Shown: piece by piece, positions 18,760 through 53,455 of the stretch
How the letters are laid out: each line of letters begins with the position of its first letter
Position numbering within the stretch: position 1 is the first letter of the stretch
Assembly (NCBI RefSeq): GCF_963506605.1
Contig: NC_083282.1
Span: 62,868,001-62,932,000, forward strand
Direction: 5' to 3'
Origin: Zootoca vivipara
Lineage: Eukaryota
Length of the DNA: 64,000 nucleotides
Notes under the pieces: model-generated
Seen by the model: only the letters and a program-made list of their open reading frames with translations
Database searches by the model: none
Told to the model about the DNA's origin: nothing
Position numbers and translations under genes: made by a program

Positions 18760-20050
18760 TCCACACCCCACACTCGCGACTCGAGCCAGAGCTGTCGCAG
18801 CTTAGTAACGGGGCGCCTAGCAACCTGGCCCGACTCCTCCAGCCGGGGCAGCGGGGCATCCTCCCCAGCTGGACCTCCGCCCATGCCCGGAGCCTCCCCA
18901 CTCACCCTGCTGGATGTCCCCGTTGGCGCCTCCGGGCACGGGCACGTTCAGCTGGCGCTCGGGCTCCGGGAGGCAGCGCCGGCAGAAGGAGTGCAGGCAG
19001 GGCAGCAGCTTCGGCTCGGCCTCCCGGCTCTGCAGGCTCTGCGCGCACACTGCGCAGGTGTCCAGCAGCGACAGCGGGCCCGGCGCGGCGCTGGAGAGGG
19101 CGGGGGGCGCGGGGCTGGGGCCCAACGGAGCCAGCGGCACGGGGCCCGGCGCCGGGCCTACGCTCACCAACACGGGCGCCGCGGCCTCCGCCTCCCCGGG
19201 GCCCTTGTCTGCCGCCACAGCCGCCGCCACCGCAAGGACCACCGCACCGGGACTCTCCCTCTCCTCGGGCGCGGCGGGGGCTGGAGGGGACGGGGACGCA
19301 ACGGCCGCCGCGGCTGAGGTGACAACGGCCGCCACGGCGGAGGTGACAGACTCGGTACCACCCCCGGCCTGCCCGGCCTCCCCAGCCCCCTCCCCGCCAC
19401 CGCCGCCTCCTCCTCCTTTGTTTTCCGCCATATTTCCTCCTTTGAACCCGACTCCCCGCTTTGCTAACGCACAGGACCGCGCATGCGCCCGCAAGCACGC
19501 TAGCGGCCTGCGCGCGCGCGTCCGAAGCACATCTGGCGCGAGGGCCGCGGAGGGCCGCCGCGTCCAGTGGGGAGGGGGCGGTGCTGGGTGTGTGCGTGCG
19601 CGCGCTTGGACGGTAGTAGCATACGAGGAAGGCGGTGGGAGAGGCCCGAGGTTGAGAGGCCAGCGAAAGGGGGTCAGTTTTTTTCTCCCTCTCTGTATGG
19701 TGTTTAAAGGAAATTGCACGGACGTAAAGGGGAGAGCGCAAGCGCGAGCGCGCACGCTCAGGTCTGTAATAGAAGCGGCGCACGCGCAGACAGAGATTCA
19801 CGTTCTAAGCGTGGGTGTCTTGAGGGCGGTTGGCGGTTGGTGTGTGGAGGGAAACGCGGCTCGTGCGGGGGGCCGAGAAACGGTGCGGCGGGAAAGGAGT
19901 CGAGGCAGGGCGAGGGCGGGGCGGACAGCGGCCTTTCACACTTGCCGGCTTCTCATCCCCGGTGTCTCTCGCTGAAAGAATTGGGCTCCTGAGTGGGAAG
20001 ATAGGAAACATAACGCGGGGCGGTTCTAGTCCGTTATGTGCGCCTTGCAA
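18760..20050. promoter_or_regulatory. TRIM33 CpG-island promoter; NRF1 palindrome GCGCATGCGC (19479-19488), YY1-like CCGCCAT overlapping the start codon
   Basis: Very high GC and CpG density around exon 1; motifs read directly from sequence. Confidence 0.85.
18906..19431 (-). CDS. TRIM33: TRIM33 (TIF1-gamma) coding exon 1: Gly/Ala/Pro-rich N-terminus plus first part of RING finger
   Basis: ATG at 19431 (MAENKGGG...). Motif [54 protein letters not shown] matches the TRIM33 RING. Donor CAG G|GTGAGT at 18905, phase 1. No downstream exon recognised in 1-18905. Confidence 0.97.
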
Positions 20051-21314
20051 AGAGGGCAATATTTGAATCTCCTCAGTTTGCACTGGGTTAGTTGATTTTG
20101 TGCTTGGCTTGCCGCGTTTCGAAATGATTTACAGCGCAGTCCAAACTTTGCCTACTCAGAGGTAGGCCCAGTTGAGTTCATTGGGGCTTACTCCTAGTTA
20201 AGTAGGGCTATCGTTACACCATGTGTGTATGTGTCTGTTTTAATTAGATGTATTTTATTGTACCATGTGAGTTGCGTTGACCTGAATGTGTTTTAATGAA
20301 GTAGGGAATAAATCACAGTGCCAAGTCGGGGAACAGGTAACCTTGTTGCATTGTCACCAGCAAGGCAGAACTGAGACCTCTGCCCATTTCTGGTCTCAGG
20401 ATTTTATTTTATTTTTTAAGTTTCTCTCCCGCTCCACCTCCTGCAATTGTCTTCAAGGTTTGGACACAGTCAAAAGCATGTTTAAATTATCTCCTGGTTT
20501 GAAGGCGAGTCATGGGGCTTAAAAAGCTTAGGCTCTCTTGGGTTTCTGCTGCTTTCTGGAGTGTCCCCTTTTGGCCCCAACCCTTATTGGAGTTCTAATA
20601 TTTGTTGGGTTTTGGCTTCTGAGAAGGAACAGATGCTTTTACGGGGACCATAGGGTTGTACCCTGGCTCTTTGGTCTCAGAAAGGGAAAAGTAGCCGTTT
20701 GATATCACCTAGGTAAAAATTAAGAGAAAAGTAAATGAGATACCATTATTTGGGTGGCATACGGTGAGTAAAATGTTTTTGGAGTATGCACCAATGGCCA
20801 GCCATTGGGTGGCAGGAGAAGTAGTGATAATGACTGCTGCATGTCAGGTCGTGAACAAGGTTATAAGGAAACCTTTTTCACAATCATTTCAAATGTATTG
20901 GTGTTCTGTCTTTGCTTAATGATACAAAATAAAACCAAACAGAATAGCTGTATGTGTAATGGTGGGAAAAGAAATTTTGCTAATGTTCGCCATTTCTTTT
21001 AAAAATTGAGTTGGGGAGTAGAAAATGGACAATCTTGAAGTAACATAATTGGGGGGGGGGACAATACAGCACAAGGTAATCTGCCAGTTGACTGATTTTG
21101 AGTAGGAGCTGTTAAGAGTTATCTACTCTTGGTCATAAATTACATCACAGAATGTTCCCAATCATATACACAGTCACATGGGACTAAGTCTCATTAAGCT
21201 TCTGGTCTGAATAGATGTCTATCAGGTTGCACTATTGTGAAACCCAAATCACACCATGTTTGTAAAGGCTGTAAATTCAGTGCATTGCCTTTGAAATATA
21301 CCCCTCTTTTTCAG

Positions 21315-21557
21315 ATACCAGGCAGAGGGCCTTCTCGGTAGTGGCACCCGCCCTGTGGAATGCCCTCCCATCAGAGGTCAGAGAGATAAACAACTACCTG
21401 ACATTTAGAAAATACCTAAAGGCAGCCCTGTTTAGGGAAGTTTTTAGTCTGTGATATTTTAATGTATTTTGATGTGTGTTGGAAGCCGCCCAGAGTGGCG
21501 GGGGAGACCCAGCCAGATGGGCAGGGTATAAATAATATATTATTATTAATAATAATA
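21315..21557 (+). mobile_element. L2 LINE 3' end
   Basis: RAFSVVAPALWNALP-type end plus (ATT)n tail; homologous to 51084-51776. Confidence 0.85.
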
Positions 21558-22445
21558 TCGCAGCTAACTAAAAAAATGTGGTGCCCTATAACGAAAGTGT
21601 ACCTTAGTCAATTTAAGCGGAAGTAAGGGAATCATATCCATATTTTGCCTAAAATAAAATACAGAGGTCCACAGTGACAGTGATTTAAGCTCTCCCATGG
21701 AAACAATGGGACATGTTTGATTGGAGGGTTCTCCAAATTCTTGCACATTGGGTTGGGTTGGGAGCTCTTACAGATATAGTTAGCTGGGTTCTAGGGCTGC
21801 TAGGAAGGATGTACAGGTTACTGCGATTGTAGGCCCAATGCAAGTCAGCAAAGTGATGATGTTGCAAAAAAGAGGAAGAAGCAAATCCTGTTTTGAATTT
21901 ATTAAGAGAAGCATGCAAGACATAAGAGGTAATGACACTTCTCGCTGTGACGCTTATTATAGGTCTCTGAAGTGCTGCATCATGTGTTAACATTTTAATT
22001 ATACTAACACATGAGAAGATTCTGAAGACAAATTCAGAGTTATAGCATGCAGAAGGCACTAGACATTTTCACTTAGAGAAAAGTAGCTTGAGGAAGAGGA
22101 TGTGGAATTAATTTTTATATATTTAATGGATTCATTTGAGAAGAATGAAAAATGAGTTGAAGTTTTAACCAAATTTAGGTTAGATTATATGTATAACCAA
22201 TTATAAACAGCTGAGCAGTGAAATGTTGCTCTAGGAAATAGAGAAGGGTGGAAAATAATACTTCACCAATGCTATAGAAAGGTGTGAATCCAACATGAGT
22301 CCAGCCTTTGCTTCAACTATAATTGGATTAACTGGAATTATCTCGCCAAGCTAATTTCAAGATTTCTTTGCCTTTGAGGGTGTAAGTGATGTGGTTTTGG
22401 CTACAGCTGTGAAGTACTTCTGAGACAACTAATTTTGCCTGATCT

Positions 22446-22585
22446 AGTTACAGGTGGGTAGCCGTGTTGGTCTGCCGTAGTCGAAACTACAGTATCTGAA
22501 GAAGTGTGCATGCACACGAAAGCTCATACAAATGACAAACTTAGTTGGTCTCTAAGGTGTTACTGGAAGGAATTTTTTTATTTTG
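22446..22585. mobile_element. Penelope-like (PLE) mini-insertion
   Basis: Flanked by direct repeat TTTTGCCTGATCT (~22433-22445 and ~22586-22598); resembles squamate PLE pseudo-LTR sequence as recalled. Confidence 0.75.
22492..22529 (+). ncRNA. Minimal type I hammerhead ribozyme motif
   Basis: GUAU-CUGAAGA-A-GUGUGC.AU.GCACAC-GAAA-GCUC-AUAC: both catalytic boxes, stem I (GUAU/AUAC), stem II and a CUC cleavage triplet. Confidence 0.75.
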
Positions 22586-22832
22586 TTTTGCCTGATCTGG
22601 AACAGTTTTGCATTCTTATTTCTGAATTCACACCCATTTTCAAACTTTTTTGTGGACTACTTGAAGCTTGAAGATTTACTACCTATCTGTTGCCTCAAAC
22701 CACATGGACTTGGACCTTGTGCGTTGTGTCACATGCAAGGCTCCGGCGGCTATTTTAAGTAAGGGCAGTCGTGCCCCTTTTAACCTAGGCTTTATACTAT
22801 TCTCATGTTCTGATTTAAATAATAATAATTAA

Positions 22833-23139
22833 ATATATGAAAATGTTCACGATGCATGCGCAGGGGCCAATGTATACAGGGGGGACAACAGGGCTCAGAC
22901 AAAAGTGTATGCTGGGAAATAGAACCCAGAACCTAACAGTTCCTTCTCCAAGGGTGGGGGCCAAGGTATGGCGATACATGGGGGAGGGGCCAACACTCCC
23001 CAGGGACAACACGGAAGGATATCCTACCAAAACACAGGGATGAGCCGAGGGGGAGGAGGGGCGGGATACATCATGGATCAGGACAGGGTGGGGGGAATCA
23101 CAGGGATGACCCACAGCAACGCGTGGCCGGGCCAGCTAG
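22833..23139 (+). mobile_element. Non-autonomous Helitron (5' end degenerate)
   Basis: 3' hairpin CCACAGCAACGCGTGG then CAGCTAG|T, shared with 35452-36060. Confidence 0.7.
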
Positions 23140-24129
23140 TCCTATTAATAAACAAAACATCTAACATCTGGTCTATTTTTAGATTTCACAGAGGAATCTG
23201 CTTAATATATATAATGACTCATGAGATGGGGGAAATCCCCATAAAGGTGTTATGTATGCATCCAGAAAGCTGAGAATAAGGAGGATTTATTGGTCATTTG
23301 GGGGTGGGGGGGGAGGACTAATACAACCACTATAGTCTGCAGCATCACCTGGGATCGGTAATGTGGGACAGAAAATCTTCCAGTGCTTCATTTTTTCTGT
23401 GGAAAATGTTCTGCTTCATAGATTAATTAGTAACTGTGAATCTCAATTACAAATAAGTGTTAGACAAGCTGGCAATTCCATTTTTTCCCCTTTACAAGCT
23501 AAATTAGATCACTATAAGGCATTTCTTATTTCTCTAAGTGAGCCAGTTCAATTTTTTTGGAAAACCCACATCACTGCCTGTGATCTTTTTTTAGACACTG
23601 CCATCTCCTTCAAAAGATTCAAGGTTTACGAAAGAAAAGAAACCTTATTGTGGGTTTTGTAATATAAAATTTAGATAAATGGCTGCATAGTAAGCTACCC
23701 CAGTTGGATTCCACTCTGCAGCATATTGTGAAAGGATTCATATTTCCTAGTAGAAGCTTTAAGTTTTGCATCAATATGACAAAAAATTCTAATCTCAGTG
23801 GTGAGAAGATGTATAATCTCTTGGACCTTTTCCAATTTTATTTGAACATAAGGTTCCCTCACATTTTGAAAGATGCATTTCTCCCCCCCCCCCCGATCAC
23901 CGGCATTGACTACCCAGAGAGCTCACACATCCTTTGTTGCCCAACTGCATCACAACAGCCCTGCTGCCAATGGGTCTAACTCTCCAGGAATTGCTGCCAC
24001 CACCCTCCCACTTACTCCTCCAGTCCTAGAAGAGAGAGAACCTGGAATGCACTAAAGCAATTATTTTTAAAAGGGTTCTGGACTAATGCCCCAGCACTCC
24101 TCAGCTCAATCTGTACCTTAGCTTACCTG

Positions 24130-31222: not shown

Positions 31223-31439
31223 AGTAAATCAAGCTGACATGAAACATTTTTTCTAGATTACCAGCAGATACTTTTAAGTCATGAAAATTCAATATTTTAC
31301 TGAGAGAAATAAATATGGTAGGATTCACAGTTAAGCATGCTTTATGGGGCTGCTGTGTGGCATTCCTGGTCTATGATGTGTATGTCTCATGTAGTTTTAT
31401 GAAATGCTTTCCGTTGTTGTATACCACTTTGATACATTT

Positions 31440-32635
31440 TGTAAAATGGCGAAAAGAAATATCAAAATTTGTTTGGAAAGGGAAGAAACCGAGAATAAAA
31501 TATAAAATATTGGTAGATACGAGGGAAAGAGGAGGCTTTGGCTTACCAAATTTGGAAATTTATCACGATGCGGCGGGTTTAGTTTGGATTAAAGATTGGA
31601 TGGAGCTCAAAAATGATCGGATATTGGATTTGGAAGGAGCAGGATTGGGTTTTGGGTGGCATCTCTATATGATGAAAGAAAAAATGGAAAATCAAAACAT
31701 CTTTTTAAATAATATAATAAGGAAATCCCTATACAAAATTTGGAAAAAAATCAGAAAATATTAGAACCAAAAACACTGTGGTGGGTGTCACCATTTGAAA
31801 TGATAGCAGTAAAAAGAGTAAATATGGGAACAAGGTGGCCAACTTATAAGGAGGTAGTAGAAGAATCTAATGGAAATTGGAAATTAAAGGAATTTGAAAA
31901 AATTAAGAATATGTGCAGTGTTTCGTTGCAATACTTCCAAATCAGGCAAAGGTTTCAATTGGATAATAGAATTGGATTTGAGAAAGAAATGTCAAAATTT
32001 GGAAAAATTATGCTGGAAGGGAAAGGAAAATACATAAAAAACTATATGAATTAATTTTGGAACGGGAGACAAAAGACGAAATGACAAAAGAAATGATGAT
32101 AAAATGGGCTCAAGACCTTGGGAAAACAATTACAATTGAAAGATGGGAAAATTTATGGAGGCGAGATTTGAAGTATGTAATAAATTACGATTTGCAAGAA
32201 AATTTTCTAAAAATGCAGGACAGGTGGTATATGACACCCACAAAAATAGCGAAAATGTATAAAGGGTCAAAAAATGTATGTTGGAGATGCCAGGAGGAGC
32301 GGGGAACCTATATGCACATTTGGTGGAATTGTAGAAAAATTAATAAATATTGGGACGATATATATAATGAATTGAATTTTTTTAAAAAATATTCTTTCAA
32401 AAAAGAGCCGGAGATATTCCTATTAAATGAAGAAATAAAGGCAAAAGATAGAGTACTAATGATGCATGCGACGGCAGCTGGCAGAATGCTCATCGCGAGA
32501 AATTGGAAGAGTGAAATGCTACCAAAAATGGAGGATTGGGTCGAAAAATGGATAAGCTATCAAAATTTAACGATTGGAGTGGGGAGGGCTAAAGGCATAA
32601 AAGAAGAAAAGTTAGAAAAAAGTTGGAGTATGTGA
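31440..32635 (+). mobile_element. L1-clade LINE ORF2 C-terminal fragment (frameshifted), BCAS2 intron 4
   Basis: FVWKGKKPRI, GGFGLPN and the cysteine-rich CWRC...TYMHIWWNC motif across ORFs 31315, 31740 and 32057. Confidence 0.9.
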
Positions 32636-38065: not shown

Positions 38066-38455
38066 CAGGGTTAGATTTCGGTTTGATGAGGCCCTAAGCT
38101 ACAGAAGGTAATGGGGCCCTTTATATGTCCAGCTGTCCTTTGTATTTCTGCTCCAGTTACTTTGATAAAATACATATTTTGTTATGTGCAAATGGCTTTA
38201 GCTCCATAAATTACCATATAGCATATATTCAACACAAAAACTGTGACAATTTGTTGTTGACAATTACTTACATCATAAGAGGCTACACAACACAAAACAC
38301 TGTTGCTGTATGTAGGTTTTATTTCATTTAATTTTTTATCTTATATTTTGGAAGTGTACAACCAGCTGTGTTTTTCCTTTAATTTTTGGGGGGATCCCAA
38401 AGAGAGTGGGGCCCTAAGCTTTAGCTTGTTTAGCTTATACGTAAATCCGGCACTG
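38066..38455. mobile_element. hAT (Tip100-like) MITE 36 nt from the BCAS2 exon 2 donor
   Basis: CAGGGTTAGATTT / AAATCCGGCACTG termini; imperfect TSD CCAAGGAC/CGGAGGAC; GGGCCCT subterminal motifs. Confidence 0.7.
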
Positions 38456-38491
38456 CGGAGGACACTTGAGCCTGGCGGGCGCCTTCCTCAC

Positions 38492-38584
38492 CTCGAAAGC
38501 GATGTAGTCGGGCGCCGTCAGGTAGCTCAGGTAGTTCTTGGTGGGCCGGTAGCGCCGCGTCTCCTCCTCCACCAGCGCCGCGGC
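38492..38584 (-). CDS. BCAS2: BCAS2 exon 2 ([31 protein letters not shown])
   Basis: CAG acceptor, GT donor, 93 nt, phase 0/0. Confidence 0.97.
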
Positions 38585-38687
38585 CTGAGGGGAGACAAAC
38601 GAGCGAAGCGGAAGACACTCGGTCAGAGGGACGCAGGGAAGACCCGGCGTTCTCGCCCCCTGTCCCCCTGTCCCCCGCCCCACTCAC

Positions 38688-38780
38688 CGCCTCTCGCACG
38701 CCCGGAGCCTCGTAGCCTTGGTCGAAATAGGGCAGGGCGTCCACGGCGACTTCGCCGGCCACCAAGCCCGGACCAGACAT
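38688..38780 (-). CDS. BCAS2: BCAS2 exon 1 ([31 protein letters not shown])
   Basis: [11 protein letters not shown] motif of SPF27; 93 nt; donor GTGAGT at 38687. Confidence 0.97.
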
Positions 38781-39549
38781 GCCGCAGCTCCCACCGCCCG
38801 CCCGCGCGCCTCAAACTTCCGTCGCGTTAAGATTGCGCAGCCGCCGTCTCCCCGACATCCACTGGTGTCACTGCGGCTGCGCAAATTTAGCTCTCTGGCG
38901 CGAAAGGAACCGCCGCGGCTCCCGGCGCCTGCGCCTGCTCGACTACACGGCCCAGCAAGTCATGCTGCTGCTGCTCCCCCTGCAGGGCGGCGTAAGGAAC
39001 AGCGGCGCCGAAATAACAAATAGAGTTATAGATTAATGCAAACAACAACAGTGATTCAAGCGGTGTATTTTTTTCAATGCTGCCTGGAGAGTAACACTAC
39101 ATACCATACATACACACGTTCTCCTTTCCAAGGCCTCTGGTTAATGGATAATTTTCCCTCTTACACGTGCCCACAGCATAAATGGTTTCCCCAGCGGCTG
39201 GGATTTTTATTTTTCTCTCCTTTCAGGCCCACTTCCCCAGCGCACACACCAATCCGGTTTAATCTGTTGCCACAGTGCAGTGGACTTTGCACAAGCTCTC
39301 TATATGGTATTATTGTTTTAACGACAGACATATTTTTCACTGCAGAAACCTGTAACTTTTTCCAAAAATGGTGTCCCCTTTAAGCAAAATTTATTACATG
39401 TTAACTGTGTTTTTTCTACTTCACACTGTTCATTACCAATTCTCCACTGACCAAGGTCATAGCCTGCAGTCCATTTCCTTATTCCATTACAACCCATGAG
39501 GGAAGGAGCGAAGCAGTCATAGGCTGGAGTTAAGAAATAATAGGAGCAA

Positions 39550-52636: not shown

Positions 52637-53455
52637 AGTATAGTCAGTATATAAAGTCCCTGGCTGACGAAAAGCACCCCTAATTTAGAGAAATTAATTT
52701 AGATCAGGTAAAGGCTAAAATGTGATGTATGCCATGGTCCCATGCAAGAGGAAATATGTACTACTTTTGGAATGGCACCACTGCAAAATAGAGGTAGTTA
52801 ACGGAAAGAATGAATGCCGTCCCATAATAAATACTCCCTGGTTCTGGAAAGCCAGAAAATTAGCAGGAAAGAATACAGGCTTTTCCATGGCATGAAAGTC
52901 TTCTAAGTGCAATTTGTGTTTTTTATGGAGGAAAATTCACACATGCTATCTCCCACCACAATTATGAAGTTGTACAGTTCCAAGATGACTGTGTAATGCA
53001 CTTTTCCCGAATACGAAGGGCATAGGAATATAGGAAGCTGCCTTATACCAAGGCAGACAATTGGTCCATCTAGCTAAGCATTGCCTGCACTGACTGGCAG
53101 TGGCTTTTCAGCATTTCAGACAAGCATTTCAGACAAGATTTGAGATGCCAGGGATTGAACCTGGGACCTTCTGCATGCAAAGCAATGCTCTACCGCTGAT
53201 CTACAGCCCTTCCCCAGCTAGCCCTGCCATTCCAGATTTTGGTGTCAGGTTCCATGCAAGCTACACCATATGTGCAAACTTATGTAGACCAATAGTATTT
53301 TTTCCAGTAATTCATGAATATCTGTTTCATGTTTCCAGAGTTTGCATTTTATGGTGGCTGAATTTCAATGATGATGATGATGATAGTCTATATATGCATT
53401 AACAAGAAAAGTTGCAATTATTTTGTGGCATGAAAGGTTCCAAAAGGGCGGTGGG

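What the first reader, a model, noticed from the sequence alone, without database searches (positions are those of the whole stretch)
22446..22585. Hammerhead ribozyme in a ~140-bp Penelope-type mini-retroelement upstream of TRIM33
Seen: stem I GTAT/ATAC, core CTGAAGA, palindromic stem II GTGTGCATGCACAC, GAAA and a minimal helix III (AAGCTC) with a CUC cleavage triplet, in an insert bounded by a 13-bp direct repeat. Established: Penelope-like elements carry minimal type I hammerheads that can cleave as dimers, and non-autonomous 'retrozymes' exist. Inference: this is a very small ribozyme-bearing retroelement whose first ~41 nt appear inverted relative to the rest. It points in the direction of divergent transcription from the TRIM33 CpG island ~3 kb away, so it could cleave promoter-upstream antisense RNA.
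Basis: partly seen in the sequence, partly recalled or inferred. Interest (0 to 1): 0.72.

Follow-up and report, generated by a model that had tools for sequence, protein, structure and literature searches.

The report
Penelope retrotransposon stub with passive hammerhead
This 140-base insert is a one-off stub of a very common jumping gene that carries the same small RNA-scissors motif about 32,000 times in this genome, so the motif is real but likely a passive passenger here rather than a switch for the neighbouring gene.

Summary
The sequence observations hold. There is a minimal type I hammerhead at 22492-22529 and a 13-bp target-site duplication, confirmed by an empty site in a related species. 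The first 41 nt are inverted. The insert is not a mini-retroelement family or a retrozyme. It is a stub of an abundant, ORF-bearing Penelope-like element (RT, zinc linker, GIY-YIG). The 37-nt hammerhead has 14,579 exact and 32,289 near copies. The inverted piece is the element's known 'tail'. Head-to-head copies carry it on exactly one arm (13 of 13 long, 28 of 28 sampled pairs), and this junction occurs once. The stub likely arose when both ends of a staggered cut primed on the element's RNA leader. 5' ends drop sharply just upstream of the hammerhead, where a TATA-like box predicts the RNA start, with no peak at the cleavage site. Genomic cores decay at a CpG. A copy this near a promoter is expected for about 3% of genes. 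Transcription was not tested. This scan reported the same kind of stub in other genomes.

The parts
22433..22445 (+). Left copy of the 13-bp target-site duplication
   Evidence: D7; empty site in organism B keeps one copy
22446..22486 (-). Penelope 'tail' (about 41 nt, the end of the 5' leader just before the ORF's ATG), inserted inverted
   Evidence: In full elements it follows the hammerhead arm directly and precedes the ATG (L101); 40 of 41 identical to tails in L294, L273 and L129
22487..22585 (+). Tail-less arm: 3' part of the pseudo-LTR, from about the predicted RNA start to the first priming site; lacks the upstream TATA-like box
   Evidence: (native match starts at -4 relative to 22492)
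22492..22529 (+). Minimal type I hammerhead: stem I 4 bp, core CUGAAGA, bulged A, stem II, GAAA, G15.2-C16.2, U16.1-C17; predicted cut at 22525/22526
   Evidence: fits the min-HHR description in PMC4209133
22586..22598 (+). Right copy of the 13-bp target-site duplication
18906..19431 (-). Context only: first coding exon of a TIF1-family RING gene (TRIM33 by recall) in a CpG island, 3.1 kb from the predicted cut site

Best explanation
The insert is a 140-bp, TSD-flanked stub of an abundant ORF-bearing Penelope-like retrotransposon, likely made once at this site when both ends of a staggered DNA cut primed reverse transcription on the element's short RNA leader, and its hammerhead is likely a passive passenger. 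Shown: both pieces are the element's pLTR end and tail, head-to-head, with a 13-bp TSD and an empty site in a related species. Inferred steps: (1) the element's GIY-YIG endonuclease cut both strands 13 nt apart; (2) the top-strand end primed at the tail's 3' end (3-nt microhomology, AGA) and copied 41 nt; (3) the bottom-strand end primed at the tail's 5' end (3-nt microhomology, TTT) and copied about 99 nt through the uncut hammerhead to the RNA's 5' end, just downstream of a TATA-like box; (4) repair joined the two cDNAs. The two arms tile the leader with only 1-4 nt of overlap, which fits one RNA primed twice. The hammerhead likely works, if at all, only on the element's own tandem transcripts with help from the element's protein.
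For: Source family: partial tandems with a 3,030-bp period and ORFs of 925-929 codons, with RVT_1 plus GIY-YIG; hammerhead and tail lie just before the ATG. Copy number: 14,579 exact and 32,289 with up to 3 mismatches. One-sided tail: 13 of 13 long inverted loci, with 12-13 bp TSDs in 10 of 13; 28 of 28 head-to-head pairs among 115 sampled arms. The same layout arises repeatedly with different junctions: 14 best non-self hits (12-14 bp TSD in 7 of 14) and 9 pattern hits, of which only this one has the TACAG linker and two are one duplicated locus. 5' ends in 100 arms of this subfamily: 27 at -10..+3 against 8 at -40..-11 (p 5e-8), and only 4 at +28..+36 around the cut site. Core decay: 34 of 47 intact; CpG changes 14 of 94 against 28 of 1,504 elsewhere; core and non-core non-CpG rates do not differ (5 of 470 against 23 of 1,034, p 0.15). 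Literature: the Anolis PLE protein cuts and extends both strands, starts RT at two internal sites bounding the tail, uses unprocessed RNA, and its hammerhead needs the protein (PMC11167929).
Against: The priming mechanism and the RNA start are inferred from genomic copies only; no RNA ends were seen. 42 of 100 arms end inside the hammerhead (+4..+27), at a density close to that at -10..+3, so the signal is a sharp upstream edge more than a peak, and palindromes blur fold-back breakpoints. In most pairs the tail arm runs well past the first priming site, which one RNA primed twice does not explain simply. 14 of 100 arms extend beyond -40 and need read-through templates. Both samples come from the first 14 Mb of contig C1 and overlap in part. 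Drosophila Penelope has a TATA-less internal promoter (PMC2377424), so an internal promoter in the stub is not excluded.
Confidence: 0.88

Rival explanations
1. The copy was co-opted to cleave promoter-upstream antisense RNA of the neighbouring gene, either alone or paired in trans with abundant element transcripts.
For: The core is intact and on the strand of divergent transcription, 3.1 kb from the ATG. The insert is present in 3 of 3 organism A samples laid.
Against: It is absent in organism B. There is no second hammerhead in the window. The active dimer is predicted at -14.1 kcal/mol, against -16.6 for two monomers and -33.6 for an inactive palindrome duplex. Single min-HHRs showed no cleavage in vitro (PMC4209133). 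A copy in this orientation and distance is expected for about 3.4% of genes. An intact core is the common state (34 of 47).
Confidence: 0.03
2. The insert is a member of a non-autonomous mini-element or retrozyme family that spreads as this 140-bp unit.
For: At least 14 other loci have an inverted tail directly ahead of the hammerhead, and 5 of these 14 share a similar junction. Retrozymes derive from PLE pLTRs (bioRxiv 10.64898/2026.07.22.740005).
Against: This junction occurs once. The other junctions differ in length and come from different subfamilies. The shared junction sits at a CTTCAGT microhomology present on both arms. The insert is a monomer without the upstream TATA-like box. Only 1 of 100 sampled arms had this compact layout.
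Confidence: 0.05
3. The insert went in as an ordinary collinear or longer fold-back copy, and a later inversion or deletion gave the present layout.
For: Long palindromes are unstable (established knowledge), and many fold-back junctions in the samples are scrambled.
Against: The TSD is a perfect 13 of 13 and of family-typical length. Both outer ends fall at the family's two usual end sites, and the inner ends fall at the tail boundary and the 5' edge.
Confidence: 0.04

Closest known systems
EN+ Penelope-like element insertions with an inverted 5'-truncated pLTR and a one-sided 30-40 bp tail (PMC8557442; Adineta vaga Pen2a, PMC3846280)
   Same: Head-to-head arms, tail on one arm, TSD, partial tandems in the source family, TATA-like and Inr-like motifs in the pLTR.
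   Different: An extreme short case: the inverted arm is the tail alone and no ORF sequence is present. The TSD is 13 bp, against 8-10 bp in the rotifer examples.
[quoted passage not shown]
   Same: Core, 4-bp helix I, bulged base between positions 9 and 10.1, G10.1-C11.1 pair, palindromic 15.2-16.2, no loop 3, mostly single dispersed motifs.
   Different: Stem II with its loop is a perfect 14-nt palindrome that favours an inactive duplex in the cofold. The family is very homogeneous (14,579 identical copies), whereas that paper stresses high variability.
PAc, the Poseidon element of Anolis carolinensis (Frangieh et al. 2024, PMC11167929)
   Same: Two internal end sites bounding a tail near the 5' end of the RNA; hammerhead just upstream; insertions made from uncut RNA.
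   Different: This family has the Neptune/Nematis-type zinc linker, and its ATG lies after the tail, not at stem II, so hammerhead and tail are non-coding leader.
Non-LTR retrozymes (bioRxiv 10.64898/2026.07.22.740005)
   Same: Non-coding, type I hammerhead, pLTR-derived.
   Different: Retrozymes are tandem arrays with at least two units. This is a monomer with an internal inversion and a unique junction.

Membership tests
PLE minimal type I hammerhead | Core CUGANGA, GAAA, UH with stems I and II | tested here: met
PLE minimal type I hammerhead | Unpaired base between 9 and 10.1, G10.1-C11.1, palindromic 15.2-16.2 with no loop 3 | tested here: met
   A22503, G22504-C22517, G22522/C22523, against the criteria
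PLE minimal type I hammerhead | Fold kept by compensatory change in diverged families | tested here: inconclusive
   Of 5 divergent hits inspected, L328 has two compensatory pairs in stem II and L329 one in stem I; the other 3 do not fit cleanly
PLE minimal type I hammerhead | Self-cleavage as a dimer or with protein | not testable with these tools
   Cofold disfavours the active dimer; needs an assay
Rfam hammerhead families (such as RF00163) | Covariance-model match | tested here: not met
   No hammerhead hit at gathering score or at E<=10
EN+ Penelope-like elements | [quoted passage not shown] | tested here: met
   L041, L045; the window copy itself has no ORF
EN+ Penelope-like elements | pLTRs from partial tandems, inverted copies, one-sided tail | tested here: met
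Neptune/Nematis clades | CX2-5CxxC zinc linker between RT and EN | tested here: met
   C-x4-C-xx-C just before the GIY-YIG; criterion from PMC8557442
Neptune clade | Placement in an RT phylogeny with named references | not tested
   Nearest named homologues are unannotated turtle proteins at 61-74% identity; 'Neptune' for reptile elements is recalled
Non-LTR retrozyme | Tandem array of two or more hammerhead units | tested here: not met
   Single unit in 64 kb
Non-autonomous mini-element family | Same unit and junction at many dispersed sites | tested here: not met
   Junction found once

The most novel reading that the evidence does not exclude
Tens of thousands of identical, individually inactive hammerheads are scattered through this genome. 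When the element is expressed, its RNA or protein could complete them in trans and cut host transcripts that run through a copy, including the antisense RNA upstream of this gene. That would make the family a genome-wide, conditionally armed RNA-cleavage system.
Probability: 0.05. Interest if true: 0.7.

Novelty: new member of a known kind. Interest (0 to 1): 0.2.

Why it matters
As a single locus it is ordinary. Its value is as a clean natural record of Penelope insertion. The two arms tile the RNA leader at the two end sites that were mapped in vitro for a different clade. The family is young, has uninterrupted ORFs and offers thousands of junctions for testing how both strands are primed and whether the hammerhead cuts in vivo, which is still an open question. 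If host transcripts were cut in trans, that would be a new way for a retrotransposon to affect gene expression, but nothing here shows it.

Tried and rejected
Rfam scans found no hammerhead model match. Folding z-scores were uninformative. Expression: no RNA holder was listed for 19300-22720, which is no evidence either way, and no RNA reads were laid, so plus-strand transcription and ends at 22525/22526 remain untested. I looked for a pile-up of 5' ends at the cleavage site, as an earlier scan note suggested for another genome, and did not find one (4 of 100 arms at +28..+36; 3 of 115). A search for other hammerhead families with a different stem II gave 287 hits; the 100 listed were mostly mutated copies of this family. 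An empty allele within organism A was not seen in 3 of 3 samples, but contigs show presence, not absence. Luense et al. 2017 was not held and is known here only through a review passage. Searches for prior description: 'Penelope + retrotransposon + twin priming' gave 3 papers, none on PLEs by title (listing only); 'Penelope, pLTR, transcription start, hammerhead, truncated copies' listed 2. I did not read supplements; those of PMC4209133 may list this very reptile motif.

Full report
Observation. No Rfam hammerhead model detects it, and the fold is no more stable than shuffles. A loose pattern would match by chance. Its reality rests on copy number and on fit to the min-HHR description: 4-5 bp helix I, a base between 9 and 10.1, G10.1-C11.1, and palindromic 15.2-16.2 (PMC4209133; parts 1-2 of 4 read). 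The 13-bp direct repeat is a true TSD. One contig of organism B, with 26 other letters over 733 nt of left flank, runs from 22432 straight to 22586. Three of three organism A samples have contigs that enter the insert from the left flank.

What it belongs to. The 37-nt hammerhead has 14,579 exact copies and 32,289 with up to 3 mismatches in a 1.44-Gb genome, with 0 for the control. About 1.4 copies are expected per 64 kb. The genome is likely a lizard's (inference; an earlier scan note says the same). Among the 30 best DNA hits, several extend upstream into a TATA-like region and two into a GIY-YIG frame on the hammerhead strand. That protein finds 8,415 candidates, several with open frames over 900 codons. 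Of 20 loci fetched, three are partial tandems, two with a 3,030-bp period. The ORF has RVT_1, a C-x4-C-xx-C linker and GIY-YIG, the Neptune/Nematis layout (PMC8557442 passages). The clade was not tested by a tree. In a full element the order is TATA-like box, Inr-like TCA(C/G)T, hammerhead, U-rich stretch, tail, ATG. Window 22487-22585 is the hammerhead arm and 22446-22486 is the tail, inverted.

The layout is the family rule in miniature. All 13 long inverted loci examined have the tail on exactly one arm, and 10 of 13 have 12-13 bp TSDs. The other three were one longer match, one in a microsatellite and one cut by the locus edge. Among 115 arms anchored on sequence downstream of the hammerhead, all 28 head-to-head pairs have one tail. 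This inverted, one-sided-tail structure is described for PLEs (PMC8557442, PMC3846280 passages). The 14 best non-self hits to the junction region share the layout but not the junction. An exact gapped pattern finds 9 loci; only this one has the TACAG linker, and two are a duplicated locus with shared flanks. So the 140-bp unit does not spread as such. Against this, 5 of the 14 share a similar junction; it lies at a microhomology present on both arms and involves different subfamilies.

Likely mechanism (inferred). PAc of Anolis cuts and extends both strands, starts reverse transcription at two internal sites bounding the tail, uses unprocessed RNA, and its hammerhead cleaves only with protein (PMC11167929; parts 1-2 of 4 read). 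Here the plus strand after the left TSD reads as cDNA of the tail and the minus strand after the right TSD reads as cDNA of the hammerhead arm. Each end has 3 nt of microhomology with the native continuation. The arms tile the leader with 1-4 nt overlap, as in L1 twin priming (recalled, not read). In 100 arms of the window's subfamily, 5' ends number 14 beyond -40, 8 at -40..-11, 27 at -10..+3, 15 at +4..+12, 27 at +13..+27, 4 at +28..+36 and 5 beyond; the window copy is at -4. The drop upstream of -10 is strong (p 5e-8) and matches a start about 30 nt after the TATA-like box. It is an edge more than a peak, the samples come from one chromosome end, and palindromes blur breakpoints. There is no pile-up at the cut site (+34), so templates were mostly uncut.

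Is the ribozyme active here? Probably not. Helix III cannot form in a monomer, and no second copy lies in the window. The active double hammerhead is predicted at -14.1 kcal/mol, against -33.6 for a duplex through the stem II palindrome. Single min-HHRs did not cleave in vitro, and dimers cleaved weakly. Across subfamilies the 38-nt motif is nearly invariant while the promoter region diverges, which suggests selection in the source elements. Inserted copies decay: of 49 arms reaching the core, 2 were dropped for indels and 34 of 47 are intact. Change is concentrated at the CpG spanning C11.1-G12, and the core shows no significant protection. The window copy has at least two substitutions against the family majority, both outside the core.

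The neighbouring gene. A minus-strand TIF1-type RING gene starts at 19431 in a CpG island; the name TRIM33 is recalled. A same-strand copy within 3.1 kb is expected for about 3.4% of genes, and the insert is species-restricted. Transcription across the insert was not tested, so the regulatory idea is unsupported rather than disproved.

Other papers seen: bioRxiv 10.64898/2026.07.22.740005, parts 1-2 of 5; PMC6765202 and PMC2377424, passages. No supplements were read. Earlier scan notes describe the same kind of stub in other genomes; my reading was noted before that look-up.

Verdict. A real but ordinary product of a known kind of element: new member of a known kind, interest 0.2.

Noticed in passing
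L224:820-3243 (G000:C1 about 2,777,300-2,779,750): Tandem array with a 598-bp period and four intact hammerheads. Each unit is the same element with almost the whole ORF deleted (ORF start joined to ORF end). It meets the tandem definition of a retrozyme and shows direct derivation from a PLE. The junction occurs only in these 4 units.
   Followed up: partly
G000, genome-wide: The source family looks very recently active: 8,415 protein candidates, many near-identical, several with uninterrupted frames of 898-951 codons, and several promoter subfamilies sharing one hammerhead.
   Followed up: partly
L328, L329, L137 (G000:C2:118,527,260; C3:89,641,879; C1:105,714,606): Rare diverged hammerheads with similar downstream sequence and different stems, likely relics of older related families; L328 shows compensatory pairs in stem II.
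   Followed up: partly
L322 and L326 (G000:C5:32.80 Mb and C8:12.70 Mb): The same stub with near-identical flanks on two contigs: a duplicated segment, not two insertions.
   Followed up: partly
window 22720-23140: Another dispersed repeat lies 120 bp downstream of the insert; part of it matches several unrelated loci.
   Followed up: no
window 38430-38810 (-): A second CpG-island gene on the minus strand, with an N-terminus I recall as BCAS2-like; its read-through would cross the insert antisense to the hammerhead.
   Followed up: no
window 31285-32635 (+): Broken frames resembling the 3' part of a LINE ORF2 (by recall, not searched).
   Followed up: no
window 53140-53210 (-): tRNA-like match at 35.8 bits with non-standard pairs, likely a tRNA-derived SINE head.
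   Followed up: no
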